Under the pieces are notes generated by a model. The model searched no databases and had not been told where the DNA came from. It worked only from the letters and a program-made list of their open reading frames with translations. From Corallococcus exiguus (GTDB taxonomy: Bacteria; Myxococcota; Myxococcia; Myxococcales; Myxococcaceae), in assembly GCF_012985275.1 (NCBI RefSeq), contig NZ_JABEKY010000003.1: DNA of 63,187 nt, one strand, 5' to 3'. Below are positions 35,388-63,187 of the stretch, piece after piece. Made by a program: the position numbers and the translations under genes. The stretch's first letter is position 1. Each line of letters begins with the position of its first letter.

Positions 35388-35411
35388 GGCTTCACTCCTC
35401 GAATGGGGACG

Positions 35412-38302: not shown

Positions 38303-38312
38303 CCTCCTGGTT

Positions 38313-40271
38313 TCAGATGGTCCCGCGCCTGGCGGTATCGACTTCTGTGACAGATGTTCCCGGATGGCCGCTGGCGCCTCGCGCAGCACCCCGCGCGATG
38401 AGATCCACCCGCGGCGTCTCGACGAGGCGGGCGGTGCTGCGCGCGTTCGGCTCGTCCATCAGCGCGGAGACCCGGTAGTCCACACAGCAGCGGTACAGGT
38501 GGTTCAAGAGGTCGTCGCGGCGGCGCAGCTGCGTCTGAAAGAAAAAGCACTCCTCCTGGAACACGAGCGTACGGCCCCGGGCCCAGGCGCCCTCCACAGG
38601 GCGACTGAGCGTCACGCGGTCGCCATCCAGTCCCAGCACCAGCGCCTGGAAGCGCTGCTTGCCCACGCGGTAGCCGTCGTCGCTCGAGCCCAGCACCATC
38701 ACGTCGCCGGGCTTGAGGCGCGAGGCCGCCGTGACGGAGCGGCGCAGCGCCGGATCCAACGGCCCCACGGGCTCCGCCACCAGGTGCACGTGGTCCACGG
38801 TGAAATCCAACGGCGTGCCCGCCTGCGCCCCCAGCGTGAGCACCATGTCGCTCGCGGCGACGGTGACGCCTGGCGCGGCGACAGGCGGCGCGGGCGTGGC
38901 CTCCGCATCCTGGAGCGGCTGCGGCACCCCGTCCGCCGACAGCCACACCACGCCCTCCCCCGCCTCCAGCCGCGCGTGCAGCACCACGCCGGCCTCCAGC
39001 CGCTCCACCGGAAGCCGCCAGCGCGTCTCCGCGACCTGAGTCCCAGTGGCCTGCGCCAGCGTCGCGGTGGCCACCACCTCGCCCATGAGCCCGGTGTCCA
39101 CCTGCTCGTAGCGGACGATGAGCCGCAGCACGGGCTGCCCCTGCGCCATCAGCACGGCCACCGGCAACGACTGCGCGGCCACGGCGCCAGCGGCGACGCG
39201 CAGCCCCAGTGACAACGCCAGTCCGTCCGGGGCCGGATTGTCGGCGTGGAAGAGGTCGGGCACCGCGGGCATGGGATAGACGAGGACGGAGGCGGTGCCC
39301 GTGCCGGACAGGCGCAGGCCCTCGGCGGTGGGAAGGAAGGACGCGCCGGGCGTCAGGTCCACGCGTCCGCCGCGCGCGCGCTCCAGGTTCTGGTCGCTGG
39401 CCTCCAGGTGCACCAGGGACAGGGCCGTGGTGGGCTCGCCGCGCGTCAGCAGGCGGACCGTCGTGGCGCCTTCGGGCACATCCTCGGCCAGCAGCGACGG
39501 GCGCAGCACCATCTGTCCGCGCGTGGGGATGGAGAGCGCCACCGTGTCCATGATGGACGCCAGGTCCACCTGCGAGCCCGCCCACAGGTCCACCTGCACA
39601 TCGATGGCCATGGCCTTGGGCGCGCGGATCTTGCTGAGGAACACCCTGCCCTCTTGGGAACGCTCCGGAGGCTCCAATCCCAGAGGCCCTTCGATGCCGC
39701 CAGTGACGGGCAGCACCTCCACGCTGGAGCGGAACTCCATGGAAGGGATGCCCGCGTCGGAGCTGATCGCGAGCCGGCTCCCCTCCACGTCCCAGCGAGC
39801 GATGACGGCGGCGAGCGCCTCCAGCAGCAGCGGGTCCGTGAGCGGCGCGCCCGTGGGTTCCTGGAAGAGTCCACCGGTGAGCGCATCCGCCAGCCGCGCG
39901 TTGATGGCGGCGGCGAGCGCGGGGCCCGTCGCGGCGGAGGCGAACGAGCCGCCCGGCAGGCCCGTGAGGGTGACGGTTGTGCGGCCATCCAGGCGCAGCT
40001 GGAGCGAGCCATTGGGGGGCACGCTGTCCCCGGAGGCGCGAGGCCTGCCGACGAGGTGACCCGGCACACGGAAGGTGGCGACGCCCGTGCGGCCGTTCTC
40101 TCGCTCGGGTTCGGGGAACAGGCCCAGCGGACCGACGACGGAGAGGAACGGCACGCGCGAAGGCCGGTAGCCCTCATCCACGTAGCCATGCGCGGCGAAG
40201 ACGCGCACGTCGCCGCTGCGCAAGGCCACCCGGCCCTGCCAAAGCAGTCCGCTGAGGATCTCGCGAATCAC
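38313..40271 (-). CDS. hypothetical protein (652 aa), first gene of the contractile-tail operon; possible cap/terminator-like N-terminus
   Basis: Clean ORF immediately upstream of the sheath, preceded by an AT-rich promoter region. The N-terminus MIREILSGLL weakly recalls DUF4255-type tail-terminator starts. No Walker A. Confidence 0.6.
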   Translation of the reverse strand: MIREILSGLLWQGRVALRSGDVRVFAAHGYVDEGYRPSRVPFLSVVGPLGLFPEPERENGRTGVATFRVPGHLVGRPRASGDSVPPNGSLQLRLDGRTTVTLTGLPGGSFASAATGPALAAAINARLADALTGGLFQEPTGAPLTDPLLLEALAAVIARWDVEGSRLAISSDAGIPSMEFRSSVEVLPVTGGIEGPLGLEPPERSQEGRVFLSKIRAPKAMAIDVQVDLWAGSQVDLASIMDTVALSIPTRGQMVLRPSLLAEDVPEGATTVRLLTRGEPTTALSLVHLEASDQNLERARGGRVDLTPGASFLPTAEGLRLSGTGTASVLVYPMPAVPDLFHADNPAPDGLALSLGLRVAAGAVAAQSLPVAVLMAQGQPVLRLIVRYEQVDTGLMGEVVATATLAQATGTQVAETRWRLPVERLEAGVVLHARLEAGEGVVWLSADGVPQPLQDAEATPAPPVAAPGVTVAASDMVLTLGAQAGTPLDFTVDHVHLVAEPVGPLDPALRRSVTAASRLKPGDVMVLGSSDDGYRVGKQRFQALVLGLDGDRVTLSRPVEGAWARGRTLVFQEECFFFQTQLRRRDDLLNHLYRCCVDYRVSALMDEPNARSTARLVETPRVDLIARGAARGASGHPGTSVTEVDTARRGTI

Positions 40272-40919: not shown

Positions 40920-41120
40920 GCCCATGGGAGGGCCCGGCCCGCTGCCTGTCTGTCATTGGGGGCCAGCCAGGCGGCAGCCGCGTCTCCGGGCCGGTGTGGA
41001 TTGCCCACCGGGGTCGGGGATGCACACCCTCCAGATCAGGCCACTCCCATGGTGGGAAGCGGCGTTACGAGGCCCTGCCTCCAAGCTCGCCGGGAAGGGC
41101 CGGGGTCAAAGGAGGCGCGC

Positions 41121-43442
41121 GTGGAGAGCCCCAGCGCAAGCTTCGACCCGGAGACCCTCGAGACCCTCTCCGACGCGCATTCCCGGCTGCTCCTCGAGAC
41201 GCTGGTGGCGAGCACGCCGGTGGGCCTCGCGGTGGTGGACATGGAGCAGCGCTTCGTCCAGGTCAACGACGCGCTCGCCGCCATGAATGGCCTCCCGCGC
41301 GCCGCGCACCTGGGGCGCAAGGTGCAGGACATCGTCCCGGAGATGTGGCCCACCCTCCGTCCCCAGTATCAGCGCATCCTGGAGGGAGGGAGCGCGCAGA
41401 CGATAGAGGTGGTGGGCGCCACCTCGAAGGAGGTGGGCGTGGAGCGCCACTTCCTCGTCAGCTACTACCCGGTGCGCACCCACTCCGGCGTGTTGCTGGG
41501 CATCGGCGTCATCGTGTCGGAGGTCACCGAACAGCGCAGGGCCCACGACGCGCTCCAGGCCAGCGAGCAGCGCTACCGCTCACTGGTGGAGGCCATGACC
41601 CAGCCGGTGTGGTCCACCAACGCCCGGGGCGAGGTGGTGGAGCCCGCGCCGCGCTGGCTGGCCTTCACGGGCCAGACGCACGAGGAACACCTGGGGCTGG
41701 GCTGGCTCACCGCCATCCACCCGGACGACCGCAAGCGCGTGGTGCGCAGCTGGGTGGAGTCCCTGCGCACGAAGGCGTCCTACCGGGGCGAGTTCCGCCT
41801 GCGCTTCCACGCGGGGGGCTACCGGGACGTCGTGGGCCGGGCGGTGCCCGTGTTCGGTGACAAGGGTGTCATCCGGGAGTGGGTGTCCACGGCGGAGGAC
41901 ATCACCGAGCGCAAGCAGGCGGAGGCCCAGGCGGAGAACGAGCGCGCGAGGCTGCGCTCCGTGCTGACGAGCGCCCCGGCGTCCATCGCCATCCTCTCCG
42001 GAGAGCGGCAGGTCTTCACGCTGGTGAACCCCCTCTACAAGGTGCTGTCGGGAGGCGCGGACCTGATGGGCACCTCCGTCAAGGACGTCGAGGACGAACG
42101 GGGGGTCGAGTACTCGCGGCTCTTGGAGCAGGCCTATACCCGTGGAGAGTCCTTCGTCGAGAAGGAGGTCGCGGTCACCACCGACTTCCAGGGCGACGGG
42201 GCCCAGTCGACGCGGCGGTTCGACGTGGTGTACCAGCCGCTGCGCGACGTGCGGGGCCAGGTGGACTCCGTGCTGTCATTCGCCGTCGACGTGACGGAGC
42301 GGGTGGAGGCCCGGAAGAAGCTGGAGGAGTCCGCCGCGTCCCTGAGGAACCAGCAGCAGTGGCTGGAGGCGATGCTGGACCGGACGCCCGTGGCCATCAT
42401 CCTGGTGGAGCCCGTGACCGGCCGCATCATCTTCGCGAACCAGGCGGCCCGGCAGATGGCTGGCGGTGATTTCCCCGGGGGCCTGCGGGAGGAGAACTAC
42501 ATGGGCGGCGCGCACCGCTTCACGGACGAAGCGGGCCGCGAGCTGACCATGGAGGAGATCCCCGGCATCCGCGCGGTGAGGGGCGATCCCGTGCACGCGG
42601 AGCCGGTCGTCTGGCACACGCCCACAGGACATTACTCCCTGCTGGTGGAGGCGGGCACCCTGCCCGCCCAGCACGGCCACCCGGAGGCGGTCCTCCTGGC
42701 GCTCCAGGACGTCACCGAGCTGAGAAAGTTGCAGGCCCAGCTCCAGCACGCCGTGTCGCTGCGGGACGAATTCCTGACGGTGGCATCACATGAATTGAAG
42801 ACGCCGCTGACGCCGTTGCAGCTCAAGCTCCAATCCCTGGTCAAGGACGCGCAGGCGGAACAGACGCTGGAGTCGCTGCGGGAGCGCGTGGTGAAGACGG
42901 CGGAGACCGTCTCCGGGCAGATACGGAAGATGACCACGCTCATCAACGACCTGCTGGAGGTGACGCAGCTCACGGGCCCCTCCGCACCGCTGCAACTGGA
43001 GGACGTGGACCTGGCGGACGTGGTGCGCGACACGGTGGAGCGCTTCCAAACCCAGGCGGCGAAGGCGGGCTGCGAGCTCATCGTCCATGCGACACCCGGT
43101 GTCGTGGGCCGCTGGGACCGCCACCGGCTGGAACAGGTGGCGAGCAGCCTGCTGTCCAACGCGCTGAAGTACGGCACGGGCCACCCGGTGACGCTTCGCG
43201 TGGAGCAGGTCCGCGGCCGGGCGAGGCTGAGCGTGAGGGACGAAGGCATCGGCATCTCGCCGGGGAGCCTCCAGGCCATCTTCGAGAAATTCACCCGCGC
43301 CGTGTCGACACGGCATTATGGCGGTCTGGGATTGGGCCTCTTCATCACCAGACAGATTGTCGAAGCCCACCACGGCACCCTGCGCGTGGAGAGCCAACCC
43401 GGCCACGGCGCGACTTTCATCGTGGAGCTGCCGGCCTCCTGA
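41121..43442 (+). CDS. PAS/PAS-domain sensor histidine kinase
   Basis: GTG start with AAGGAGG 5 nt upstream; alternative ATG at 41049. Repeated PAS segments. H-box HELKTPLTPLQLKLQ. HATPase C-terminus (GTGHPVTLRV...GGLGLGLFI). Confidence 0.8.
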   Translation: MESPSASFDPETLETLSDAHSRLLLETLVASTPVGLAVVDMEQRFVQVNDALAAMNGLPRAAHLGRKVQDIVPEMWPTLRPQYQRILEGGSAQTIEVVGATSKEVGVERHFLVSYYPVRTHSGVLLGIGVIVSEVTEQRRAHDALQASEQRYRSLVEAMTQPVWSTNARGEVVEPAPRWLAFTGQTHEEHLGLGWLTAIHPDDRKRVVRSWVESLRTKASYRGEFRLRFHAGGYRDVVGRAVPVFGDKGVIREWVSTAEDITERKQAEAQAENERARLRSVLTSAPASIAILSGERQVFTLVNPLYKVLSGGADLMGTSVKDVEDERGVEYSRLLEQAYTRGESFVEKEVAVTTDFQGDGAQSTRRFDVVYQPLRDVRGQVDSVLSFAVDVTERVEARKKLEESAASLRNQQQWLEAMLDRTPVAIILVEPVTGRIIFANQAARQMAGGDFPGGLREENYMGGAHRFTDEAGRELTMEEIPGIRAVRGDPVHAEPVVWHTPTGHYSLLVEAGTLPAQHGHPEAVLLALQDVTELRKLQAQLQHAVSLRDEFLTVASHELKTPLTPLQLKLQSLVKDAQAEQTLESLRERVVKTAETVSGQIRKMTTLINDLLEVTQLTGPSAPLQLEDVDLADVVRDTVERFQTQAAKAGCELIVHATPGVVGRWDRHRLEQVASSLLSNALKYGTGHPVTLRVEQVRGRARLSVRDEGIGISPGSLQAIFEKFTRAVSTRHYGGLGLGLFITRQIVEAHHGTLRVESQPGHGATFIVELPAS

Positions 43443-43655: not shown

Positions 43656-44696
43656 ATGCCCATGCCCAAATTCCTGTCCGTGCACGGCGCCGCCGCCGCG
43701 GTCCTGTTGAGCGCCCTGCCCGCCTGGGCCCAGTCCGCCCTGCCCGGCTTCGAATTGGAGCACCTGGAGATCAACCCCGGCCGCGGAACCGCGGTGATGC
43801 GCAACGGCGAGCTGCTGGTGCCCGGCGGCATGAGCCTGGGGCTGGTGGGCCAGTACCAACAGCTGCCGCTCGTGCTCCTCAACGGCGAGCGCCGCCTGGA
43901 GGCCGTGCGCAACCGCGCGTCCTCCGTCCTGGCGGGCAGCTACGGCGTGCTGCCCTGGCTGGAGGTGGGCGCGCAGGTGCCCGTGGTGTTGTGGCAGCAG
44001 GGGGATGATCCAGCGCCCCTGGGCCTGACGCCGCTGGCCTCGCAGGGCCTGGGCACCCCGGAGATACAGGCGCGCCTGGGGCTCTTGTCGCGCCGTGACG
44101 ACCACCCCGTGGACCTCGCCATGGACCTGGGCGTGGGGCTGCCCATCGGCAGCGCGGCGGTGCTGGGCCGGGACTCGGGCATCCGCGTGCGCGCCCTGGC
44201 CGCCATCGGCACGCAGGTGGGGTTCCTCAAGCCCGCGCTGGAGGCCGGCGTGCTGCTGCGCTCGCGCAACCCGCTCTCCGCGCCGAACGCCTCCGGACAG
44301 ACCCTGGAGGTCCGCCTGGGCGCCGGGTTGACGACGGCCGGACAGGGCCTGCGCGGCGAACTGGCGGTGAAGGCCGCCTTCGCGGCGGACATGGACCAGC
44401 CCGCTGTGGAGGTGCTGGCCGGCGGACGCATCCCGCTATCGGAGGGACTGGAGCTGCACGCGCTCGCGGGGCCCGGCCTGGGACGCACGCCGGGCACGCC
44501 CATCGCCCGGGTGCTCCTGGGCGTGTCGTTCCGCCAGGAGCCTCCTCCCCGGATGGAGGTGCTCCCGGAGCCCGTGCCCCACCTGCGCCTGGAGGAGTTC
44601 AAGACGCGGCCGGAGTACGTCCCGGACTCGAGCGTGGAGCCGGTGCCCACCCGCGAGCTGCTCCCCCCTGAACCCGCGCCGTCACCCTCGCCATGA
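43656..44696 (+). CDS. secreted Ala/Gly-rich protein with signal peptide, outer-membrane beta-barrel-like
   Basis: Signal peptide MPMPKFLSVHGAAAAVLLSALPAWAQS. Alternating hydrophobic beta-strand-like patterns. Pro-rich C-terminus. Confidence 0.6.
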   Translation: MPMPKFLSVHGAAAAVLLSALPAWAQSALPGFELEHLEINPGRGTAVMRNGELLVPGGMSLGLVGQYQQLPLVLLNGERRLEAVRNRASSVLAGSYGVLPWLEVGAQVPVVLWQQGDDPAPLGLTPLASQGLGTPEIQARLGLLSRRDDHPVDLAMDLGVGLPIGSAAVLGRDSGIRVRALAAIGTQVGFLKPALEAGVLLRSRNPLSAPNASGQTLEVRLGAGLTTAGQGLRGELAVKAAFAADMDQPAVEVLAGGRIPLSEGLELHALAGPGLGRTPGTPIARVLLGVSFRQEPPPRMEVLPEPVPHLRLEEFKTRPEYVPDSSVEPVPTRELLPPEPAPSPSP

Positions 44697-53800: not shown

Positions 53801-55318
53801 TCAGCCGAGCCGCGCATCCACGCGGAGGTCCACGTTCATGCCTTCGAACTGGATGTGCGGGAGGACGGAGAGGTTGCAGTGGTACCAGCCCACCTTGCCG
53901 GGCACTTCCGCCACGGTGAGGTTGTAGGCCTTGAAGGGGTAGTAGCGCAGCGTCAGGTCATCCGGGTTCACCAGCGTGGTGACGTACCGGGAGATCCACC
54001 GGTCCAACTGCTGCTGCATGTACGCCGCGTTGGCCGTGCTGCCGATGTTCTCGCGCATGATGGCCTTCACGTAGTGCGCGATGCGGCTGATGGAGTACGT
54101 GTAGGCCATGTTCGTCACCAGCTGCGAGTTCTCCGAGTCCTTCGTGTCCTCGAAGACCTTGGCCTTCTTGAGGGACTGGACGCTGAAGAACACGGCCTCC
54201 GCGCTCCCCTTCTTGTGGATGAGCGGGATGAAGCCGCCGTTGGCCAGCTCGAGCTCGCGGAAGTCCGGGATGGACATCTCCACGGGCAGCTTCATCTCCT
54301 CCTCGCCGCGCAGGTGCGTCAGGTGCACGGGCAGGCCCGCCACCAGGCCGCCGCCCTTGGGGCCGCGGATGTGCTGGCACCAGCCGGAGCCCGCGAACGA
54401 GCGCACCAGGTTGCGCGCGAACAGCATGGCCGCGTTGCCCCAGAGGTACTCCTCCTCCTTGTCGCCCTTCACCGCCTCCGTGAAGTTCATGCCGGGGGCC
54501 GGGTAGGTCTCCGGGTTGTAGGGAGGCCGGACGATGTAGCGCGGCAGCGTGAGGCCCACGTAGGCGGCCTCGTCCGTGTCACGCAGCGCGTTCCAGGCGG
54601 AGTACTTGGGCGAGTCCAGCAGGCTGGCCACATCCCGCAGCTGGGACACCTCCTTCATGGTGTCGCAGCCGAAGAAGCGCGGGGACACGGACGCCACGAA
54701 CGGCGCGTGGCTGGCCGCGGCGATCTTCCCCATCGTCTTGAGCCACAGCATGTCCTGCGGCGTGTTGGCGAACTCGAACATGCCCACCAGCGCGCCGTAG
54801 GGGGCACCGCCGTACTGATCGTACTCAGCGACGTACAGCTTCTTGAAGAACTCCGAACCGGCCACGTCCGCCGCGTTCGTCTCCAGGTCGCTGTAGGCCT
54901 CCTCCTTGGAGACATCCAGCAGGCTCAGCTCGATGTTGGCCTTGAAGTTGGTGTTGCGCACCAGGTCGTTGAGCGCGGTCCACTGCGCCTCCACCTCCTG
55001 GAACTCCGGCGCGTGCAGCACGGCGTTGAGCTGATCCGACACCAGCGCGTCAATGGTGCCGACCAGCTCCTGCACCGTCTGCTTGTCGAAGCGGCCCTCG
55101 TCCGTGTCCATGTTGTGGACCATGGCCGCCAGGCTGGAGACGAAGCGCTCCTCGGGGGTGGCGTCGTCGGGAATGACGAGCAGGTCCGTCTGGGCGGAGG
55201 CGTCGCGCGCGGCGGGCACGGAGCCCAGGCGCACGCTGTTGAGGAACAGCGGAAGGTCCAGGGGCACATCGGCCACGGCGGTCGTCGCGGTGGTGGAAGA
55301 CGCAGGATTCGTGGGCAT
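53801..55318 (-). CDS. tssC: type VI secretion sheath large subunit TssC
   Basis: 505 aa. The C-terminal region ...GGFIPLIHKKGSAEAVFFSVQSLKKAK...YYPFKAYNLTVAEVPGKVGWYHCNLSVLPHIQFEGMNVDLRV is characteristic of TssC/VipB. Confidence 0.9.
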   Translation of the reverse strand: MPTNPASSTTATTAVADVPLDLPLFLNSVRLGSVPAARDASAQTDLLVIPDDATPEERFVSSLAAMVHNMDTDEGRFDKQTVQELVGTIDALVSDQLNAVLHAPEFQEVEAQWTALNDLVRNTNFKANIELSLLDVSKEEAYSDLETNAADVAGSEFFKKLYVAEYDQYGGAPYGALVGMFEFANTPQDMLWLKTMGKIAAASHAPFVASVSPRFFGCDTMKEVSQLRDVASLLDSPKYSAWNALRDTDEAAYVGLTLPRYIVRPPYNPETYPAPGMNFTEAVKGDKEEEYLWGNAAMLFARNLVRSFAGSGWCQHIRGPKGGGLVAGLPVHLTHLRGEEEMKLPVEMSIPDFRELELANGGFIPLIHKKGSAEAVFFSVQSLKKAKVFEDTKDSENSQLVTNMAYTYSISRIAHYVKAIMRENIGSTANAAYMQQQLDRWISRYVTTLVNPDDLTLRYYPFKAYNLTVAEVPGKVGWYHCNLSVLPHIQFEGMNVDLRVDARLG

Positions 55319-55368: not shown

Positions 55369-55929
55369 TCACGTCGTCGGCGGCTGCGGGTTCGTCGCGG
55401 CCAGCTTCGGCAGGCTCATCGTCTTGAACGCGGCCAGCTCCGTCTTCAGCTTCTGGACGGCCTCCGGGTTCTGAGCGAGCTGGCGCACCAGCTGGCGGAA
55501 CTCCTTGCGGTTGTCCAGGTTGCCCTGCAGCTCCAGCAGCAGCTTGCGCAGCGTGAGCAGCGCGTTGATCTTCGGCACCTGACGGGCCACGTCCACCGGG
55601 CTGAAGGACTTCATCGAGTCCAGCTTGAGGCTCACCTGCAGCGGCGCCGGCGCCGAACCATCCACCGGGTCCTTCTTGTCCACGCGGTTGGGCACGTTGA
55701 AGTTCAGCGTCATGCCCATGTTCTGGATGACCTGATTCAGGTTCTTGCCATCCAGATTGCGGATCTCCCGCTGATCCAGGTCCTTCTTGCGGTCGTTGGA
55801 GGTGCCCTTGGAGAAGTCCCCCATCACCAGCAGCCGGAACGGAAGCGCCTTGTCCGCCCGGGTGCCATTCACCTGGGTGCGGTAGGTCAGCGTGATGCGT
55901 GATCTGGGAATTTCGTCGGTGATGGCCAT
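55369..55929 (-). CDS. tssB: type VI secretion sheath small subunit TssB
   Basis: MAITDEIPRSRITLTYRTQVNGTRADKALPFRLLVMGDFS is the TssB/VipA signature. Internal ATG of ORF 55369..56079. Confidence 0.9.
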   Translation of the reverse strand: MAITDEIPRSRITLTYRTQVNGTRADKALPFRLLVMGDFSKGTSNDRKKDLDQREIRNLDGKNLNQVIQNMGMTLNFNVPNRVDKKDPVDGSAPAPLQVSLKLDSMKSFSPVDVARQVPKINALLTLRKLLLELQGNLDNRKEFRQLVRQLAQNPEAVQKLKTELAAFKTMSLPKLAATNPQPPTT

Positions 55930-55954
55930 GAGTACCCCCAAGAACTGAACCGCC

Positions 55955-56002
55955 GTTTTGTGAAGGAATTGATAAACCATATGAATATACAAAAGCAATA
56001 CA
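55955..56002. promoter_or_regulatory. AT-rich island in the divergent tssB / tssK promoter region
   Basis: gttttgtgaaggaattgataaaccatatgaatatacaaaagcaatacac is about 30% GC and lies 25-70 nt upstream of the tssB start. Confidence 0.3.
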
Positions 56003-56239
56003 CCCCCAACGCATGACCTGACACGATGGGCGCGTCGACACCCGGTGAGACAGGAAAGACCCAACCCATGGTGTTTCATGCCCTTCAGGGCACGAAACCA
56101 GACACGGTGGATCAGCCAGGCTCACTTGACGTCACAGGCTCCAGGCCGGTAGCTTTTTCTAAACACTGTCACCCAGCCCAGGCAAGCTTTTGCTCCGGGC
56201 GGTCCCCGTGACGGAAAACCCGCTCCCGCCGTCCCTGCC

Positions 56240-57493
56240 ATGAACCCAGACACACTCGCGCGAGTCCTGTGGCAGGAAGGGCAGACCCTGCTGCCCGAAC
56301 ACTTCCGGGCCCAGGAGGAATCCCTCTCCACGGAGGCCCGGCGCTACGCGGGGTTCGCGGGTCTTCCGGTGGTGGGCGTGAGCGCGTTGCGTTTCAACGA
56401 TGTGTTGCTCGCCAAGGGCTCGGTGGCGCTGGAGGAATTGACCGCGGTGTTACCGGGAGGCCACCTGGTGGAGGTACCGGGTAACGCGGATGTAACACCG
56501 CTGTCGCTCGAGGAGACGGGCCGCATGCGGGTGACGGTGTATCTGCACCTGCTGGGCGTGCTGGAGCCCCGCGAGGACCTGGCGCCCGCGGGCGGTGAAG
56601 CGCCCAGCGTGGTGCGCGCGGGACGGAGGCTGTGCCTGTCGCTGGAGCCGGTGGTGGACGACACGGTGAGCAGCCTGTCGCTGGCCGTCTTCACCCGGAA
56701 CGCGGACGGGCCCTGGCAGCTGTCCGCCACGCACCTGCCGCCGCTCTTGAGCGTGGGCCCCCACCCGTTCCTGGAGCCCCTGTTCGAGCAGCTGGACGGC
56801 CTGCTCCAGCAGGCGCAGGGGCAGCTGCGCACGTCGCTGCGCGAAGGCCTGGTGCGAGGCGACCGGCTGGCCAGCGCACGGCGGGCGCTGTGCGAGGTGC
56901 GAAGCCTCCAGGTGCTGCGCCAGGACATGCGCCACGGCCTGCAGCCGCCGCCGTACCCGCTGGTGCAGGCGCTGCGGCGGCTGTACTTCGAGACGTGCTG
57001 CTACCTGGAGGCGGAGCCGGACGACGAACTGCCCGCGTACGAGCACGAAACGCCGGGCCCGGGAATCGCTCGGTGGATGGAGCTGCTCACGCGCGGGTTC
57101 CGCCCGCAGGCCAGCCCCCTGTCCTACCGGGTCTTCGACTTCCAGGAGGGCCACTTCAAGCTGACCCCGCTGCCCAGGGAGACGCCGCCGCCGGATGACT
57201 TCTACCTGCTGGTGCGCCGCCAGGAGCGCGACCGGCCCCGCTCCATGGAGGGCGTGAAGCTGGCCAGCCCCTTGCGGCTGCCGGCGGTGCGGCGCCAGGC
57301 CTTGAAGGGCGTGCCGTACCGGCACGTGGCCTTCCCGTCGTTCCCCCACGCCTTCGACGCGGACATCGACTGGTATCAGCTCACGCCCCAGAGCGAGGAG
57401 TGGCAGTCCGCGACGCGCGAGGACGGGATCACGTTCTTCGCCACGCCCGCGCTCGAAGGGGCGCAGGTGCTCCTCTACTGGCGCAGGGCCTGA
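56240..57493 (+). CDS. tssK: type VI secretion baseplate protein TssK
   Basis: MNPDTLARVLWQEGQTLLPEHFRAQEESLSTEARRY matches the TssK N-terminus (KV.W.EG..L.PQHFQQ). 417 aa. Confidence 0.85.
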   Translation: MNPDTLARVLWQEGQTLLPEHFRAQEESLSTEARRYAGFAGLPVVGVSALRFNDVLLAKGSVALEELTAVLPGGHLVEVPGNADVTPLSLEETGRMRVTVYLHLLGVLEPREDLAPAGGEAPSVVRAGRRLCLSLEPVVDDTVSSLSLAVFTRNADGPWQLSATHLPPLLSVGPHPFLEPLFEQLDGLLQQAQGQLRTSLREGLVRGDRLASARRALCEVRSLQVLRQDMRHGLQPPPYPLVQALRRLYFETCCYLEAEPDDELPAYEHETPGPGIARWMELLTRGFRPQASPLSYRVFDFQEGHFKLTPLPRETPPPDDFYLLVRRQERDRPRSMEGVKLASPLRLPAVRRQALKGVPYRHVAFPSFPHAFDADIDWYQLTPQSEEWQSATREDGITFFATPALEGAQVLLYWRRA

Positions 57494-57520: not shown

Positions 57521-58099
57521 ATGCCCAAGCTCATCTGCATCATCGACATGGACAAGGAGAAGGGCCTCACCCTCACCACGGAGGACAAGGACGGGAAGAT
57601 CCTCCAGACGGTGAAGATGGACGGCGAGTCCATCACCCTGGAGGTGAAGGGTGACAGCGCCACCAGCACCATCGTGCAGAAGCAGGACAGCGTCACGGTG
57701 ACCTGCAAGTCCTTCGTGCTGAAGGCGGAGACCATCGAGGTGACGTCCACGAAGGCGTCGTCGTGGAAGAGCGACGACACGTTCGCGCTGGAGAGCGCCA
57801 AGGCCTTCACGGTCACCACGAAGGACGAGCTGACGCAGAAGGCGGCGAAGGACGCGACCTTGTCCTCGGACAAGGCCGTGACACTGAAGGCGGCGAAGAT
57901 GTTCAGCGTGGAGGGGGCCGACGTCCAGATGGAGGCCAAGAGCGGAGAGCTGTCGCTGATGGCCCCGTCCGTCAAGGCGGAGGGCAAGAAGGACATCGCC
58001 ATGGAGGGACCGCAGGTGAAGTTGACCGCCAAGGCGCAGCTGGCGCTCAAGGCGGACGGCATGGCGGAACTCAAGGGCGGAATGGTGAACGTGGGCTGA
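57521..58099 (+). CDS. stand-alone gp5-C/VgrG-needle-like beta-helix protein (192 aa, Lys-rich, 8-residue periodicity)
   Basis: Periodic VTLKAAKM/FSVEGADV/QMEAKSGE/LSLMAPSV/KAEGKKDI/AMEGPQVK/LTAKAQLA/LKADGMAE/LKGGMVNV pattern typical of a triple-stranded beta-helix. Lower GC and higher Lys content than neighbouring genes. Confidence 0.55.
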   Translation: MPKLICIIDMDKEKGLTLTTEDKDGKILQTVKMDGESITLEVKGDSATSTIVQKQDSVTVTCKSFVLKAETIEVTSTKASSWKSDDTFALESAKAFTVTTKDELTQKAAKDATLSSDKAVTLKAAKMFSVEGADVQMEAKSGELSLMAPSVKAEGKKDIAMEGPQVKLTAKAQLALKADGMAELKGGMVNVG

Positions 58100-58109: not shown

Positions 58110-58748
58110 ATGAAGCTCGAACACTGGCAGGTCGTCTTCACGCAGTACCGGCAGGCCCAGTCCGTCCTGGACGGGTGGCTGCCGCAGTCCGCGCCCGGTT
58201 CGGCCGCGGCGGTGGGGCTCTTGGGCCGCGAGGGCCTGCGCAGGCTCCACGACGAGCTCCTGGAGGTGATTGAGCGGCTGCGCGCGGGCCTGGGCGCCCA
58301 CGCTCGCGACGAGGAGGTGCAGGACGCGCTGAGGCCCTTCACGTACCTGGTGGACGAGCGCGTCCTCCTGCGGCTCGCGGACTCGGAGCAGCCGCTGTGG
58401 CCGCTGTTGCAGTACCGCCTCTTCGGCGAGGACGGCGGCGGCGAGGCCTTCTACACGCTGGCGGATCAACGGCTGGATCAGCCGGGTTCGCCCGCGCTGC
58501 TCTTCGAGATGCTCCACTTCTGCATCACGGCGGGCTTCGGAGGCCGCTACCTGGGCCATACGGCGAAGCTGCGCGAGTACCAGGAGCGGCTGTCCGCGCG
58601 CATCGTCACGCCTCCGCCACCGCCCGCCACCGCCGCGTCCGGCGAGTCCCTTGGGCCGCTGCTCTACACCTTTCCCGCCCGCTACTACGCGGCCAGCGCC
58701 GCGAGCGTGCTCGGGCTGCAGGGCCTGCTCTGGTGGGTGACCCGGTGA
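58110..58748 (+). CDS. tssL: type VI secretion membrane protein TssL (DotU-like)
   Basis: LLFEMLHFCITAGFGGRY is the DotU/TssL motif. C-terminal TM segment AASVLGLQGLLWWV. Confidence 0.8.
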   Translation: MKLEHWQVVFTQYRQAQSVLDGWLPQSAPGSAAAVGLLGREGLRRLHDELLEVIERLRAGLGAHARDEEVQDALRPFTYLVDERVLLRLADSEQPLWPLLQYRLFGEDGGGEAFYTLADQRLDQPGSPALLFEMLHFCITAGFGGRYLGHTAKLREYQERLSARIVTPPPPPATAASGESLGPLLYTFPARYYAASAASVLGLQGLLWWVTR

Positions 58749-59068: not shown

Positions 59069-62000
59069 ATGGATGTCATCAAGAAGCTGACGGCGTTCAT
59101 TCCGCCGAAGTGGAAGCCGTATGCGCTGCTCGTCCTGGCGCTGCTGGCCATTGGCATTCCGCTGTTCCTCGTGTGGCGTGCGAAGCGAAAGAGCGCGCCG
59201 GCCGGAGGGGCCGCCGCGCCGGAGCCCCTGGCGAAGAACCGGCTGCGCAAGGTGCGCGAGAAGTTCCTGGCCGGGCTGCCCCTGCGCCACCGCGTGGCGG
59301 TACGGGACCTGCCAGGTGTGGTGGTGCTGGGGCCTGCGGGCGCGGGCAAGTCGCGGCTCATCGAGCTGGACCTGGACTGGAAGCGGCAGGCGCGGCAGTT
59401 CCTGCCCAGCCTCCTCACGGACTCGCTGCTCCAGGTCTACCTGGGCGCGGACGTGGTGGCCCAGGAGGTGTCCCCGCAGCTGTTGGAGGACGAGTCGCCG
59501 CAGGCGCGAGAGGCGCTGCGCCGGCTGTGGAAGGACAGCTTTGGCGGCGGTCAGCAGGCGCTGGCGGTGCTGGTGCTGGACGCGCGCTGGCTTCAGGACA
59601 CGCCCCCGGACGAGGTGCGCCGCGCGGCGCAGCTGTTGCGAGGCAAGCTGAACCTGTTGGCGGAGGTGCGCGGAGGCGCGTTCGAGACGCGCGTGTGCCT
59701 CACCCACCTGGATGAGCGCGAGGGCTACGCGGACTTCGCGAAGCTCTTGCGCGCGCACCACGTGCCGCTGCGCTTCCCCCTGCCCCCGCCCGGCCAGGAG
59801 CCCAAGCTGGGCTCGCTGCTCAAGGCGCAGGAGCAATACCTGGCGCTGGGCCTGACGGCGCTGCCGGTGGAGTCCTTCGAGCGGCTGGAGCGCTTCTATT
59901 CGGAAGGCCACGCGCCCTTCGAGGCGCTGTCGCGCTTCGTGACGGCGCTGATGGAGGGCCAGACGCTGGCGTACGCCCCCACGCTGGCCACGGTGTCGCT
60001 GTCGTCCGCAGACAAGGACGCGAGGGACCCGGACGTCCTGTCCGTGTCCGCCGAGGCCAGCACGGCGAAAGCGGTCCACGAGCGCTACATGCACACGCAC
60101 CTGCGCCGGGCGGTGCTGTTGGGCCTGGCGTTCGCGCTGCCGCTGTTGGCCGCGTACGGGCACTTCGCGTGGAGGCTGGGCCAGGCGCGCACGCGCGTGC
60201 AGCGCTTCGAGGACATGGTCCAGCGCATGCGCGACCAGGGGCAGGCGGTGTCCGGGGTCGCGGTGCAGGAGCCGGTGCTCGCGGCGGGCCAGTCCCTGGA
60301 CTCGCTGTGGAGGGCGATGAACGCGTGGCCGCTGTTGCGCTACAGCTTCACCGGCGCGCGAGAGGACCTGCGCCAGCGTCTGGCGCGGGGCATCCGTGAG
60401 GCACACATCCGGCCCGCGCTGGAGAAGTGCCACCGCCAGCCGGACACATGCCGTCCGGAGCAGGTCGTCTACCTGCTCGCCACCTTGCACGGCTCGCGTG
60501 AGGAGCCGCTGGGGCAGCTGGTGCTGTCCAGCCTGAAGACGCGCCCGACCTGGAGCTTCGTATCGGAAGGCAGCGAGGCGGAGTCCCCGGGCGACGTGGC
60601 CGCGCTGGAGGCGGGGCGCACGTGGGTGACGGCGGTGGGGCTGAACGAGTCCCTGGTGGCCGACTACGTCGTCATGAGCAATCCGCCGTGGTCTGCGCCG
60701 GACACGCCCGAGGCCAGCTGGGCGCGCTGGCCCTTCCCGGAGCCGCTCACGCTGGAGGCGCAGCTGATGCCGTGGCAGGCGCACCTGCGGCGCTTGCAGG
60801 ACCTGCTGGGCAACCGGGCCGTGGAGCCGCGCGAGCTGGAGCGGTTGGACGCGGAGCTGGAGTCCATGCAGGACGAGCGCAGGCGGCTCCAGGCGCTGCT
60901 GGATGACAGCGCGCGCTTCAGCAGCCTGCCGCGCGCGTTGGAGCTCCTGGCGGCCTCCGAGGCGCGCGTGGACACCAGCCGCTTCCGGGGCATCCCCTCC
61001 ACGCTCAAGACGGTGGCGTGGATCAACGACCACCGCGACGCGCTGACGAACGTGCTGCGCATGGAGGAAGAGGCGTACCTGGGCGTGAAGGCGGTGCAGA
61101 AGATGACCGTGGCGGAGCTGCTGGTGCGCGACGGCCTGTGGCTGCCGGGCAACGGCCCCGCGGTGCTCCAGGTGCCGGTGCTCCAGAGCACCTTCGAGTT
61201 CCGCCCCAAGGACGGCTCGCGGCTGCTGCACCAGGCGCTCCTGCGCTACCACGAGAAGACGGGGCGCCTGCCCTTCGGCGTGGTGGAGGGCGAGGAGGCG
61301 GTGGCGTCGCGGGGTGGAGCGACTCTGGCGGCGGACCGGCTGGAGTTCGACACGCGGCTGCGCCCGCTGGTGGACGAGTTCACCACGCGCATCAAGGGCG
61401 CGGGGCTTCCGGTGGAGGAGGTGTCGCAGCGCCAGGAGCACGTGCGCCGCAAGGTGAACCAGTTCGCGTTCCAGTACCGCAACCGGCTGTTCCAGCGCGT
61501 GTCCACCTACCGCTTCCAGGCGGTGATTCCCGCGCTCCTGTCGGAGGAGCTGTCGCGTCTCACGCAGCCGTCCTCGGAGCTGGTGGACATGCTGCGCGAC
61601 GTGGCGCAGGGCGTGGCGCTGGAGCCGTTGGACGGCCCCTTCTACGAGTCGCTGCGCAACGCGGTAGCGCCGTTCAAGCCCATCGCCACGGTGATGAAGC
61701 CGGACGAGACGGGCAACTACACGGCGCTCAACCCCTACCGCGCGCTGGTGGCCCAGATGTCGGACGAGCTGAACGCAGTGCCCCGGCAGGGCGTGGTGCC
61801 CGCGGAGGCGACGGCGTCGCTCAACGGAGGCCTGGCTACCGGCAGCGCGCAGCCAGCCGGAGGGGCCGCGAAGCTGCCGGAGCTGCTGACGCCGCTGGGG
61901 CGCCTGGCTTTCGCGATGATGCTGGAGGACGACACATCCTACCTGCGCAAGGTGGACGCGTGGCTGGACCAGCAGGGGCTCATCGGAGAGCTGCGCCAAC

Positions 62001-62770
62001 CCTTCCGCCAGCCGTTCCTCGCGGTGCGCGACCTGGGGCAGCGCGAGATTGAGCGGACCCTGGAGCGGCATTGGGACGACGCCTCCAGTCGGTTCCTGCG
62101 TCCGCTGCTGAACCGCTATCCGTTCACGCCGGACGCATCGCAGGAGGTGGATCCGGGAGACCTGGAGGTCCTGCGCAAGCAGGACGGAGCGTTCTGGGAG
62201 TTCGTGACGCGGGTGCTGGCGCCGGTGTGCGAGGAGCGAGGCTCGGAGTGGGTGCCGCGAGGCGCGCTCCAGTCCCGGCTGTCGTTGCCGCAGGGGATGT
62301 TGCCCACGCTGGGGAGGCTGTCGCGGCTGGCCCGCATGTTGTGGGACCCGGAGGGAAGGCCCCGGCCCCTGATGCTGCAGGTGATGCCGTTGCCGCTGCC
62401 GAAGGCACCCACGCAGGGAAGCTTCGTGACGCTCGGTTCGCTGAAGTGCGGCAAGACGACGTTCCTCGCGTACAACCAGAGTCCGACGTGGCAGGAGTTC
62501 CCGCTGGCGTGGTGGGACCAGCAGACGGCGTCGCTGATGCTGGAGGTACGGGCGCCCGCGGACCAGTCGGTGCAGTACGCGTCGCTGGAGAAGTCCCGTT
62601 CGGCATGGAGCTGCTTCCGGCTGCTGGAGTCATCGCAGTCCACGGAAGACCCGCAGCACCGCCGTTGGTCGTTGCGAGCGCGAGGAGCCACCGCCACGGA
62701 CGGGGTGATGGACCTGCGCTTCGGGCTCAAGGGTGAGCCCTGGATCCCGTTCCGCGAGGTGCCGCGATGA
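59069..62770 (+). CDS. tssM: type VI secretion membrane protein TssM (IcmF-like)
   Basis: N-terminal TM helix (ALLVLALLAIGIPLFLVW). Walker A VVLGPAGAGKS. About 1230 aa, the size of IcmF. Confidence 0.9.
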   Translation: MDVIKKLTAFIPPKWKPYALLVLALLAIGIPLFLVWRAKRKSAPAGGAAAPEPLAKNRLRKVREKFLAGLPLRHRVAVRDLPGVVVLGPAGAGKSRLIELDLDWKRQARQFLPSLLTDSLLQVYLGADVVAQEVSPQLLEDESPQAREALRRLWKDSFGGGQQALAVLVLDARWLQDTPPDEVRRAAQLLRGKLNLLAEVRGGAFETRVCLTHLDEREGYADFAKLLRAHHVPLRFPLPPPGQEPKLGSLLKAQEQYLALGLTALPVESFERLERFYSEGHAPFEALSRFVTALMEGQTLAYAPTLATVSLSSADKDARDPDVLSVSAEASTAKAVHERYMHTHLRRAVLLGLAFALPLLAAYGHFAWRLGQARTRVQRFEDMVQRMRDQGQAVSGVAVQEPVLAAGQSLDSLWRAMNAWPLLRYSFTGAREDLRQRLARGIREAHIRPALEKCHRQPDTCRPEQVVYLLATLHGSREEPLGQLVLSSLKTRPTWSFVSEGSEAESPGDVAALEAGRTWVTAVGLNESLVADYVVMSNPPWSAPDTPEASWARWPFPEPLTLEAQLMPWQAHLRRLQDLLGNRAVEPRELERLDAELESMQDERRRLQALLDDSARFSSLPRALELLAASEARVDTSRFRGIPSTLKTVAWINDHRDALTNVLRMEEEAYLGVKAVQKMTVAELLVRDGLWLPGNGPAVLQVPVLQSTFEFRPKDGSRLLHQALLRYHEKTGRLPFGVVEGEEAVASRGGATLAADRLEFDTRLRPLVDEFTTRIKGAGLPVEEVSQRQEHVRRKVNQFAFQYRNRLFQRVSTYRFQAVIPALLSEELSRLTQPSSELVDMLRDVAQGVALEPLDGPFYESLRNAVAPFKPIATVMKPDETGNYTALNPYRALVAQMSDELNAVPRQGVVPAEATASLNGGLATGSAQPAGGAAKLPELLTPLGRLAFAMMLEDDTSYLRKVDAWLDQQGLIGELRQPFRQPFLAVRDLGQREIERTLERHWDDASSRFLRPLLNRYPFTPDASQEVDPGDLEVLRKQDGAFWEFVTRVLAPVCEERGSEWVPRGALQSRLSLPQGMLPTLGRLSRLARMLWDPEGRPRPLMLQVMPLPLPKAPTQGSFVTLGSLKCGKTTFLAYNQSPTWQEFPLAWWDQQTASLMLEVRAPADQSVQYASLEKSRSAWSCFRLLESSQSTEDPQHRRWSLRARGATATDGVMDLRFGLKGEPWIPFREVPR

Positions 62771-63187
62771 AACCGTGGGCAAGCTGCATCCCCCTGGCGC
62801 TGTGTTTCCTGGCCGCATGCCAGCCGAGCACGCTTCACCTGAGCGTGAAGGCGCCATCCGGGACGAACCAGGGCCGGCCGCTGTACATGCTGGTGCGCAA
62901 GGTGGACCCGAAGCAGTTCGCCGTGGAGTCCTACGGCGAGGTCTCCGCGCGAATCTTCCAACCGGACGCGGACGTGCTGCTGTCCGCGCTCATCTATCCG
63001 GGCACGCTGCAGCGCATGAAGGTGCCTCTGCCGGAGAACGCGCCGGTGGCGGTGTCGTTCCTCTTCACCGCGCCGGACGGCACCTGGCAGCAGTTCGTCA
63101 ACACGCCCACGCCCGGCTCGCTGGACATCGAGCTGCTCGAAGGGCGCATCCGCACGGGAACGCAACCTGCGGCGCCCAATAAAGGCG
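62767..63187 (+). CDS. tssJ: TssJ-like lipoprotein (3' partial)
   Basis: ATGA overlap with the tssM stop. Lipoprotein signal MKPWASCIPLALCFLAAC with lipobox LAAC. Small beta-rich protein; runs off the window end. Confidence 0.55.
   Translation, partial: MKPWASCIPLALCFLAACQPSTLHLSVKAPSGTNQGRPLYMLVRKVDPKQFAVESYGEVSARIFQPDADVLLSALIYPGTLQRMKVPLPENAPVAVSFLFTAPDGTWQQFVNTPTPGSLDIELLEGRIRTGTQPAAPNKG

What the first reader, a model, noticed from the sequence alone, without database searches (positions are those of the whole stretch)
57521..58099. Split VgrG: truncated gp27/gp5-OB VgrG plus a separately encoded Lys-rich beta-helix needle gene between tssK and tssL
The vgrG at 48434..50065 (543 aa) ends right after the gp5 OB-fold, with no C-terminal repeats. 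A 192-aa ORF inserted between tssK and tssL shows a strict 8-residue periodicity typical of the gp5-C/VgrG triple beta-helix. Its composition is distinct from its neighbours: Lys-rich with somewhat lower GC. A trans-encoded needle would be an unusual modular arrangement, or this gene is an adaptor or cap for PAAR/DUF4280 loading.
Basis: inference. Interest (0 to 1): 0.6.

Follow-up and report, generated by a model that had tools for sequence, protein, structure and literature searches.

The report
Two-gene T6SS spike: hub plus needle
The small Lys-rich gene between tssK and tssL most likely encodes the needle half of a type VI secretion spike whose hub half is a separate gene 7.5 kb away, a two-piece design known so far from Francisella and found here in a soil myxobacterium and many relatives.

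Summary
The ORF at 57521..58099 (+) is a real, conserved gene of 192 aa. It has 14% Lys, no Arg, and GC 0.63 against about 0.71 in its flanks.

The 543-aa gene at 48434..50065 (minus strand) matches no Pfam or NCBIfam model. Its confident model matches Francisella PdpA best (E 1.8e-24), then canonical VgrGs.

Three observations link the two genes:
- Six relatives of 739-793 aa are end-to-end fusions of the two proteins, joined by a loop of about 7-15 residues.
- In 41 of 48 genome loci the two genes are adjacent, hub then needle. Only close Corallococcus relatives have the needle moved to between tssK and tssL.
- The locus also carries IglG-like (DUF4280), IglE-like and IglI-family genes.

This is therefore a Francisella-type split spike, but inside a system with canonical TssB, TssC and TssK and a TssE-like gp25 gene. 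I rate it a new variant of a known kind. Physical assembly of the two proteins has not been tested.

The parts
57521..58099 (+). Needle half of the split spike (192 aa): an N-terminal beta-hairpin meander (about residues 5-61) followed by a period-8 beta-helix segment (63-192). It is Lys-rich and Arg-free.
   Evidence: Aligns to the C-terminal ~190 residues of six fusion proteins.
48434..50065 (-). Hub half of the split spike (543 aa). PdpA/VgrG-like gp27 hub plus an OB-like barrel, ending in five beta-hairpin strands (488-541).
   Evidence: AF2 pLDDT 87.7, pTM 0.83. Foldseek: 6u9e_A PdpA E 1.8e-24, TMq 0.72; canonical T6SS VgrG structures E 5e-18 to 2e-15. Family profile hits PdpA at E 1.8e-5. 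No Pfam or NCBIfam hit.
46387..46761 (+). IglG-like DUF4280 (PAAR-like) protein, the presumed tip that caps the needle. The start codon is uncertain; the ORF is open from 46273.
   Evidence: PF14107 2.1e-34. NF041248 T6SS_IglG 3.4e-12, below its cutoff.
56240..57493 (+). tssK baseplate gene, immediately upstream of the needle gene.
   Evidence: TIGR03353 6e-95, 318.9 bits, above cutoff.
58110..58748 (+). tssL/dotU membrane-complex gene, immediately downstream of the needle gene.
   Evidence: PF09850 2.3e-16.
59069..62770 (+). tssM/icmF-like membrane-complex gene.
   Evidence: PF21070, PF06744 and TIGR03348, all weak.
62770..63187 (+). IglE-like outer-membrane lipoprotein (TssJ analogue). It runs off the end of the window.
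   Evidence: PF22361 IglE_N 2.3e-31.
50062..50466 (-). tssE (gp25-like), directly upstream of the hub gene. The start codon is approximate.
   Evidence: PF04965 1.6e-6. TIGR03357 2.2e-7, 30.5 bits, below the 53.2-bit cutoff.
46763..48430 (-). tssF baseplate gene, directly downstream of the hub gene.
   Evidence: PF05947 7e-21. TIGR03359 2e-23, 83.2 bits, below the 260.3-bit cutoff.
50463..51407 (-). 314-aa gene, probably TssG/IglJ-like.
   Evidence: No family hit itself. Its L001 homolog carries a weak PF06996 TssG hit.
51421..52422 (-). IglI-family protein, a Francisella-island marker.
   Evidence: NF041244 9.4e-70, 235.8 bits, above cutoff.
53122..53817 (-). 231-aa gene in the tube (Hcp/IglC) position after tssC. 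Function not shown.
   Evidence: Position only; no family hit.
53801..55318 (-). tssC, sheath large subunit.
   Evidence: PF05943 1e-109. TIGR03355 507 bits.
55369..56079 (-). tssB, sheath small subunit.
   Evidence: PF05591 1e-41. TIGR03358 147 bits.
44693..46375 (+). AMP-binding-like 560-aa gene, conserved next to the DUF4280 gene in this T6SS type. Role unknown.
   Evidence: PF00501 1.2e-12 over the N-terminal ~80 residues only. Conserved in L001, L002 and most loci.

Best explanation
The 192-aa protein is the beta-helical needle of a two-gene T6SS central spike.

Proposed mechanism:
1. Three copies of the PdpA-like hub (543 aa, 48434..50065, minus strand) form the gp27-type adaptor that sits on the tube. 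Each ends in a five-strand beta-hairpin meander.
2. Three copies of the needle protein dock on that end through their own conserved N-terminal meander (residues ~5-61, the same ~11-residue repeat), so the sheets continue across the protein boundary.
3. Residues 63-192 wind together into a gp5/VgrG-type triple beta-helix with an 8-residue repeat.
4. The IglG-like DUF4280 protein (46387..46761) caps the blunt end, and the whole assembly is fired by sheath contraction.

Shown here: the homology of each half, their fusion and adjacency in relatives, the folds of the monomer models, the periodicities, and purifying selection.

Inferred: trimerisation, the docking mode, capping by DUF4280, and secretion.

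The tssK/tssL position is a secondary rearrangement in one Corallococcus lineage and has no demonstrated functional meaning.
For: 1. Fusions. P0065, P0066, P0068, P0132, P0147 and P0157 (739-793 aa) align to the hub over its residues ~3-542 (E 1e-60 to 1e-85). After a further ~7-15 residues they align to the needle over its residues 4-192 (E 1e-10 to 3e-31).
2. Gene order. In 41 of 48 genome loci, and in two metagenome contigs, the needle gene directly follows the hub gene. In the 19 loci measured the gap was 13-120 nt, all three frame offsets occurred, and 18 needle genes start with ATG. In the fused locus L001 there is no separate small gene.
3. Hub fold. AF2 pLDDT 87.7. The best PDB match is Francisella PdpA 6u9e_A (E 1.8e-24, TMq 0.72), followed by canonical VgrGs and gp27/Mu gp44 hubs. 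In a family-profile search of PDB sequences, PdpA was the only hit with E below 2 (1.8e-5).
5. Periodicity. Period 8 in residues 63-192 (z 5.8) and about 11 in residues 1-62 (z 4.9).
6. Conservation. It peaks at the needle N-terminus (0.84) and the hub C-terminus (0.66-0.67), as expected for an interface.
7. Selection and family size. dN/dS is 0.34-0.58, and there are 513 cluster representatives, most of them stand-alone.
8. Context. DUF4280/IglG-like, IglE_N and IglI-family genes lie in the same locus.
Against: - No multimer prediction or experiment was possible, so trimer formation and hub-needle contact are inferred.
- The needle falls below the curated thresholds of both DUF2345 (23 vs 30.7 bits) and the Francisella VgrG model (17.7 vs 100 bits).
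- In this window the two genes are on opposite strands in different operons, so co-expression is not guaranteed.
Confidence: 0.85

Rival explanations
1. The 192-aa protein is an adaptor or chaperone that loads PAAR/DUF4280 proteins or effectors onto the spike, rather than being part of the spike shaft.
For: It is small and highly charged, and a DUF4280 gene lies in the same locus.
Against: - It is homologous over its whole length to the C-terminal shaft of six fused spike proteins.
- Its fold matches are spike needles, not the known adaptor families.
- No DUF4123, DUF1795 or DUF2169 hit appeared.
- In relatives it is adjacent to the hub gene, not the DUF4280 gene.
Confidence: 0.04
2. The gene is a non-functional remnant of a broken full-length vgrG, a pseudogene fragment or an assembly frameshift.
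For: Fused full-length versions exist. In 5 of 19 measured loci the hub stop codon is in frame with the needle start.
Against: - dN/dS is 0.34-0.58.
- Intact ORFs, ATG-started in 18 of 19 measured junctions and mostly preceded by RBS-like motifs, occur in lineages from Myxococcota to Psychromonas.
- All three frame offsets occur, about as chance would give.
- There are 513 cluster representatives.
- In the window the gene has moved to another operon and remained intact.
Confidence: 0.02
3. The needle protein works on its own as a complete short spike or a secreted product. On this view the 543-aa protein is only a baseplate hub that does not join it into one continuous shaft.
For: - Separate operons in this window.
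- The needle evolves quickly (dN/dS about 0.5).
- Some relatives have extra hub paralogs with a helical C-terminal extension and no needle of their own.
Against: - Fusion proteins join the two with loops of only ~7-15 residues, which implies spatial continuity.
- The hairpin repeat continues across the break.
- The published Francisella PdpA-VgrG complex is one assembly (PDB 6u9e; PMC10653695).
Confidence: 0.07

Closest known systems
Francisella T6SS-ii central spike: PdpA (820 aa) + short VgrG (164 aa), PDB 6u9e/6u9f/6u9g
   Same: - A two-gene spike: a gp27-like hub protein plus a separate short protein that is only beta-helix.
- The window hub's best structural match is PdpA (E 1.8e-24). In the family-profile search of PDB sequences, PdpA is the only hit with E below 2.
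- The locus also has IglG-like DUF4280, IglE_N and IglI-family genes.
- As in Francisella, the hub and needle genes are not adjacent in this window.
   Different: - The hub is 543 aa rather than 820 aa, too short to include PdpA's N-terminal alpha-helical lid. This is inferred from length; the lid is described in PMC10653695.
- Sequence similarity is remote: 17.7 bits to the Francisella VgrG model and 26.5 bits to PdpA.
- The locus has canonical TssB, TssC and TssK above the curated cutoffs, plus a gp25/TssE-like gene (Pfam PF04965 just above its cutoff; NCBIfam TssE model below it). Francisella has divergent IglA/B/D and no recognised TssE (PMC10653695).
- The host is a soil predator, not an intracellular pathogen.
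- Fused and adjacent-gene versions exist in relatives.
Canonical T6SS-i VgrG/TssI (single-chain gp27 + gp5-OB + beta-helix, e.g. 4mtk, 4uhv, 8gra, 6sjl)
   Different: - It is encoded as two proteins.
- The hub has no Phage_GPD, gp5-OB or TIGR VgrG sequence hit.
- The tip is DUF4280 rather than classical PAAR.
Phage T4 gp27 + gp5 (+ gp5.4)
   Same: The hub and the needle-bearing protein are separate gene products that assemble 3+3. The needle has an 8-residue repeat like the gp5 C-terminal beta-helix.
   Different: In T4 the break lies between gp27 and the gp5 OB-fold, and gp5 also carries a lysozyme. Here the OB-like domain and the first five hairpin strands stay with the hub, so the break falls inside the beta-hairpin repeat region.

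Membership tests
Francisella-type short VgrG (NCBIfam NF041249 T6SS_TssI_Fran) | Score above the curated equivalog cutoff (100 bits) | tested here: not met
   17.7 bits, E 0.0026. 11 of 21 family members hit weakly, best 6.5e-5. This indicates remote homology, not membership.
Francisella-type short VgrG (NCBIfam NF041249 T6SS_TssI_Fran) | A short stand-alone protein consisting only of the gp5-like beta-helix, with no gp27 or OB domains | tested here: met
Francisella-type short VgrG (NCBIfam NF041249 T6SS_TssI_Fran) | Partnered with a separately encoded PdpA-like hub | tested here: met
   The hub model matches 6u9e_A at E 1.8e-24. The family profile matches PdpA at E 1.8e-5. Fusion and adjacency are seen in relatives.
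Francisella-type short VgrG (NCBIfam NF041249 T6SS_TssI_Fran) | Forms a physical (VgrG-PdpA)3 complex and is co-secreted | not testable with these tools
   No multimer prediction was available, and no experiment.
Pfam DUF2345 (PF10106, VgrG C-terminal region) | Score above the gathering threshold (30.7 bits) | tested here: not met
   23 bits, E 7.6e-5, residues 72-187.
Canonical VgrG/TssI (T6SS-i) | A single polypeptide with sequence-detectable gp27 (Phage_GPD) and gp5-OB domains followed by the beta-helix | tested here: not met
   There are two polypeptides. The hub has no Pfam or NCBIfam hit. The architecture is recovered only by structure.
gp5-type triple-stranded beta-helix | Octapeptide (8-residue) sequence periodicity | tested here: met
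   Residues 63-192: period-8 summed z 5.8, 0 of 2000 shuffles. The hydrophobicity spectrum peaks at 2.0 and 7.75-8. This does not hold for residues 1-62.
gp5-type triple-stranded beta-helix | Three chains intertwined around a common axis | not testable with these tools
   Only monomer prediction was available. The extended, strand-less conformation of residues 62-192 at pLDDT 55-91 (block means; above 80 up to residue ~150) is compatible but is not proof.
T6SS-ii (Francisella pathogenicity island type) | Signature components: PdpA-like hub, short VgrG, IglG (DUF4280), IglE, IglI | tested here: met
   PdpA-like by fold. DUF4280 2.1e-34 and IglE_N 2.3e-31, both above the Pfam thresholds. IglI_fam 235.8 bits, above the cutoff of 100.
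T6SS-ii (Francisella pathogenicity island type) | Divergent core: IglA/B/D in place of canonical TssB/C/K, and no recognisable TssE | tested here: not met
   TssB (TIGR03358, 147 bits), TssC (TIGR03355, 507 bits) and TssK (TIGR03353, 319 bits) all pass the canonical cutoffs. A gp25/TssE-like gene is present: PF04965 28.3 bits against a 27.2 cutoff, but TIGR03357 30.5 bits against 53.2. The locus is therefore a hybrid of type i and type ii features.

The most novel reading that the evidence does not exclude
The window belongs to a large, so far undescribed class of T6SS found in Myxococcota, Desulfobacterota, Syntrophales and at least one Psychromonas. This class combines a canonical type-i sheath and baseplate with Francisella type-ii spike, tip and lipoprotein parts. 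That would make it the evolutionary bridge explaining where the 'orphan' Francisella system came from.

Within this class the spike exists in three forms: fused, adjacent-split and dispersed-split. Hub paralogs without needles also occur. The split may therefore serve modular mixing of hubs on one shared needle.

The near-total exclusion of Arg from the Lys-rich stand-alone needles may reflect a functional constraint or modification that is still unknown.
Probability: 0.35. Interest if true: 0.7.

Novelty: new variant of a known kind. Interest (0 to 1): 0.5.

Why it matters
Reviews state that type-ii T6SS, with its short VgrG plus PdpA spike, exists only in Francisella (PMC10433429, PMC12955703).

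This locus shows the same two-piece spike, together with IglG-, IglE- and IglI-like parts, in free-living predatory myxobacteria and other environmental lineages. It sits next to canonical sheath and baseplate genes.

That has three consequences:
- It gives the Francisella machine relatives to compare with.
- The natural fusion, adjacent and dispersed versions mark where a VgrG tolerates being cut: a short loop inside the beta-hairpin region.
- It offers non-pathogenic organisms for studying how hub and needle assemble in trans.

For annotation, neither half is recognised by current Pfam or NCBIfam models, so pipelines will report such T6SS loci as lacking VgrG.

Tried and rejected
- Single-sequence searches of both proteins against PDB sequences gave nothing useful. 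The needle's top hits were CD22 and TCR noise, and the hub had no hit. Only family profiles worked.
- My first Pfam/NCBIfam scan of the 'vgrG' used the wrong strand. I repeated it on the minus strand and there was still no hit.
- The primary Francisella spike paper (Yang et al. 2019; PMC6939872, doi 10.1016/j.str.2019.10.007) is not held. What I state about it comes from PDB entry titles and reviews.
- Seven literature searches for a described myxobacterial PdpA-like/short-VgrG or type-ii-like T6SS found nothing relevant. This covers the held library only.
- I considered horizontal acquisition as the cause of the low GC and rejected it as unsupported. GC3 is 0.96, like the host, and the low overall GC follows from the Lys-rich, Arg-free composition at codon positions 1 and 2.
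- I considered programmed read-through or frameshift joining hub and needle. Frame offsets at the junction are spread over 0, 1 and 2 about as chance would give, so there is no support.
- I did not use a Francisella VgrG sequence recalled from memory as evidence.

Full report
**1. What is at the coordinates**

The window has 70% GC. An ATG-started ORF of 192 codons lies at 57521..58099 (+). It starts 27 nt after the stop of tssK (56240..57493; TIGR03353, 6e-95) and ends 10 nt before tssL/dotU (58110..58748; PF09850, 2.3e-16). tssM follows at 59069..62770.

Its GC at codon positions 1/2/3 is 0.53/0.40/0.96. The high GC3 matches real genes of this genome.

Its composition stands out:
- It has 27 Lys (14.1%) and no Arg, and its GC is 0.63.
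- tssK, tssL and tssM have GC 0.71-0.72 with 1-3% Lys and 8-10% Arg.
- The low overall GC comes from codon positions 1 and 2, that is from the amino-acid composition. It does not point to foreign origin.

The closest homolog is 94% identical and comes from Corallococcus coralloides. Against six orthologs dN/dS is 0.34-0.58. The gene is real and under selection.

**2. Periodicity**

- With BLOSUM self-similarity, residues 63-192 show a period of 8. The summed z over lags 8-40 is 5.8, and 0 of 2000 shuffles reach it. The family hydrophobicity spectrum peaks at 2.0 and 7.75-8.
- Residues 1-62 show no period 8 (z -2.1). They have a period of about 11 (z 4.9; spectral peak 10.75).

This matches the AlphaFold model, which has pLDDT 83.4. 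It has six hairpin strands spaced 10-12 residues apart in residues 5-61, followed by an extended chain with no intrachain partners in residues 62-192.

**3. The supposed vgrG**

The 543-aa ORF at 48434..50065 is on the minus strand, between tssE (about 50062..50466) and tssF (46763..48430). As a single sequence it has no Pfam, NCBIfam or PDB-sequence hit.

Other evidence identifies it:
- A profile of 33 family members searched against PDB sequences has only one hit with E below 2: Francisella PdpA (6u9e_A, E 1.8e-5).
- The AlphaFold model is confident (pLDDT 87.7, pTM 0.83).
- Its best structural match is again PdpA (E 1.8e-24, TMq 0.72). Next come canonical T6SS VgrGs (8gra, 4mtk, 4uhv, 9jg9, 7q5p; E 5e-18 to 2e-15, TM about 0.6), PVC/Afp/eCIS spikes, and Mu gp44/gp27-type hubs.

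It does not stop right after the OB-fold, though. Strands at 488-497, 500-509, 512-521, 524-531 and 534-541 form a hairpin meander with about 12-residue spacing. The 192-aa protein begins with the same kind of repeat.

**4. Evidence that the two genes are halves of one spike**

(a) Fusion proteins. Six relatives of 739-793 aa (P0065, P0066, P0068, P0132, P0147, P0157) align to the hub over its residues ~3-542 (E 1e-60 to 1e-85). After a further ~7-15 residues, the same proteins align to the needle over its residues 4-192 (E 1e-10 to 3e-31). For example, P0068 residues 27-571 match hub 7-542, and P0068 residues 585-766 match needle 8-191. The break therefore falls in a short loop between two hairpin strands.

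(b) Gene order.
- In a metagenome contig at 46% needle identity (L002), the order is tssK, tssE, hub (550 aa), needle (200 aa, 43-nt gap), tssF, dotU.
- A more distant contig has tssK (its product also carries a faint gp25/TssE Pfam hit), hub (602 aa), needle (165 aa), tssF, dotU, a 196-aa gene, tssM and IglE_N.
- In a scan of one genome per species, 41 of 48 loci are co-linear with hub and needle adjacent. These include Syntrophales, Desulfobacteraceae, Desulfurivibrionaceae and a Psychromonas MAG.
- Only L003-L008 share the window's layout. These are Corallococcus carmarthensis, aberystwythensis, praedator, coralloides and terminator, plus one Myxococcaceae MAG. In them the hub lies in a minus-strand operon and tssK-needle-tssL-tssM-iglE lie on the plus strand.
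- The 'insertion between tssK and tssL' is therefore a lineage-specific rearrangement.
- Some Corallococcus genomes carry both a rearranged and a co-linear paralogous system (L006 and L037, both on NZ_CP172866.1).

(c) The split is not an artefact. In 19 measured junctions the gap is 13-120 nt and all three frame offsets occur. 18 needle genes start with ATG, mostly behind a GGAGG-like motif.

(d) In the fused locus L001, tssK and tssE are followed directly by the 774-aa spike gene, and there is no small gene.

**5. The needle fold**

- The best hits of the family profile among PDB sequences are weak (E 0.002-0.1). Five of the top six fall on the beta-helix region of contractile-system spikes.
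- The single sequence scores below threshold against DUF2345 (23 bits, threshold 30.7) and against the Francisella short-VgrG model NF041249 (17.7 bits, threshold 100).
- 11 of 21 family members hit NF041249, which is the only family that recurs.

The scores are modest, as expected for one chain taken out of an intertwined trimer. I could not run a multimer prediction.

**6. Family size and conservation**

An exhaustive profile search finds 513 cluster representatives at E <= 1e-3, and 202 at E <= 1e-10. Among the best 150, almost all are 70-323 aa stand-alone proteins. Five are C-terminal domains of fusion proteins, and two are giant repeat proteins.

Conservation is highest at the needle N-terminus (mean column identity 0.84 for residues 1-62, against 0.71 for 126-192). 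It is also highest at the hub C-terminus (0.66-0.67 for residues 391-543, against 0.47-0.56 elsewhere). This fits an interface between the two.

Both spike genes evolve faster than their neighbours. dN/dS is 0.54-0.60 for the hub and 0.42-0.50 for the needle, against 0.12-0.19 for TssK and 0.09-0.34 for TssC.

**7. Mechanism proposed**

- Three hubs form the adaptor on the tube.
- Three needles dock by extending the hub's hairpin sheets with their own N-terminal meander.
- Residues 63-192 intertwine as an octapeptide-repeat beta-helix.
- The IglG-like DUF4280 protein at about 46387..46761 caps the end (PF14107 2.1e-34; NF041248 3.4e-12).

The homologies, fusions, synteny, monomer folds, periodicities and selection are shown here. 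Trimerisation, the docking mode, capping and secretion are inferred from the published behaviour of VgrG and PdpA-VgrG spikes (PMC5924787, PMC10653695).

**8. Comparison with what is known**

The published precedent is the Francisella type-ii spike. [quoted passage not shown] Features the window locus shares with Francisella:
- IglI family protein (NF041244, 235.8 bits, above cutoff).
- IglE_N lipoprotein (2.3e-31).
- DUF4280/IglG-like tip.

Features that differ:
- TssB, TssC and TssK pass the canonical type-i thresholds.
- A gp25/TssE-like gene is present. It scores just above the Pfam GPW_gp25 cutoff (28.3 vs 27.2 bits) but below the NCBIfam TssE cutoff (30.5 vs 53.2 bits).
- The hub, at 543 aa, is too short to contain PdpA's N-terminal helical lid. 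This is inferred from length.

The locus therefore works like a type-ii spike inside a largely type-i machine. By curated sequence thresholds, neither half belongs to an existing family.

Reviews say type ii is exclusive to Francisella (PMC10433429, PMC12955703). Seven searches of the held literature found no description of myxobacterial PdpA-like or short-VgrG systems. That is absence in this library, not proof of novelty.

**9. Rivals**

- An adaptor or cap role is unlikely, because the protein is homologous over its full length to the shaft of fused spikes.
- A pseudogene fragment is excluded by selection and by conservation across phyla.
- A needle that acts independently of the hub cannot be excluded without biochemistry. 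The very short fusion linkers and the repeat that continues across the break argue against it.

**10. Verdict**

The finding is best described as a new variant of a known kind: a Francisella-type two-gene spike in a myxobacterial T6SS, with natural fused, adjacent and dispersed forms. Interest is moderate at 0.5. The principle is already known, but the breadth of the family, its hybrid type-i/type-ii character, the mapped split point and the unexplained Arg-free needle composition are all worth following up.

Noticed in passing
window 57521..58099; alignment A1; deep-search proteins P0069-P0214: Stand-alone needle proteins almost exclude arginine while being Lys-rich. The window protein has 27 K and 0 R. 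20 of 21 close family members have 0 R. Of 111 stand-alone cluster representatives, 34 have 0 R, 27 have 1 and 17 have 2. The needle domains of the six fusion proteins have 1-10 R, and partner hubs have 5-9% R. This is in genomes of about 70% GC, where Arg is normally favoured. I have no explanation.
   Followed up: partly
window 44693..46375 (+); L001 1439..3244; L002 1..1445; most loci: A ~560-aa protein whose N-terminal ~80 residues match AMP-binding enzymes (PF00501, 1.2e-12) is conserved in this T6SS type. In the Myxococcota loci it lies immediately upstream of the DUF4280/IglG-like gene. It sits where iglF lies next to iglG in Francisella (gene order recalled from memory). Its role is unknown.
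   Followed up: no
window 33063..38389 (-): A second, separate contractile-injection or phage-tail-like cluster: an 804-aa sheath (Phage_sheath_1 + 1C) at 35975..38389, a T4 gp19-type tube at 34896..35387, and a CIS_tube protein at 33063..33935.
   Followed up: no
L022 19185..20528 (-), L034 19455..20579 (-), and 'HUB-' hits in ~22 loci; protein P0064: Many co-linear loci carry a second hub-like gene about 10 kb downstream on the opposite strand. Its C-terminus is an Ala/Glu/Lys-rich, probably helical extension instead of a needle (as in P0064, 644 aa). In the two loci examined (L022, L034) it is followed by a 500-700-aa ORF and no needle gene was detected nearby. The hub therefore exists in three forms: alone, fused to a needle, or fused to a helical domain.
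   Followed up: partly
L006 and L037 (both Corallococcus coralloides KYC2213, NZ_CP172866.1): The same genome carries two paralogous systems of this T6SS type. One is rearranged like the window (needle 84% identical). The other is co-linear with hub and needle adjacent (needle 41% identical). L003/L036, L004/L041, L005/L047 and L008/L035 are the same kind of pair, each from one assembly.
   Followed up: partly
proteins P0161 (3249 aa) and P0162 (2550 aa): Two giant proteins contain 10-17 tandem matches to needle residues ~29-80 (the hairpin meander module). The module is therefore also used as a repeat unit outside spikes.
   Followed up: no
L044, L045, L048, L050: The split hub-needle pair and its T6SS type also occur outside Myxococcota, in Syntrophales, Desulfobacteraceae, Desulfurivibrionaceae and a Psychromonas (Gammaproteobacteria) MAG. 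There the needles are shorter (173 aa) and the gene order around them differs (iglI and the 314-aa homolog lie downstream of tssL).
   Followed up: partly
window 48434..50065 and 57521..58099 versus neighbours: Both spike genes evolve two to five times faster at non-synonymous sites than tssK, and faster than tssL and tssC. dN/dS is 0.42-0.60 for the spike genes, against 0.12-0.19 for tssK, 0.15-0.27 for tssL and 0.09-0.34 for tssC. This could reflect diversifying pressure on the secreted parts.
   Followed up: partly
window 43656..44696 (+) and 40956..43442 (+): Upstream of the T6SS lie a 346-aa gene with a weak match to the outer-membrane-exchange protein TraB (NF033763, 1.3e-5) and an 828-aa PAS-domain histidine kinase. 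A regulatory or kin-recognition link was not examined.
   Followed up: no
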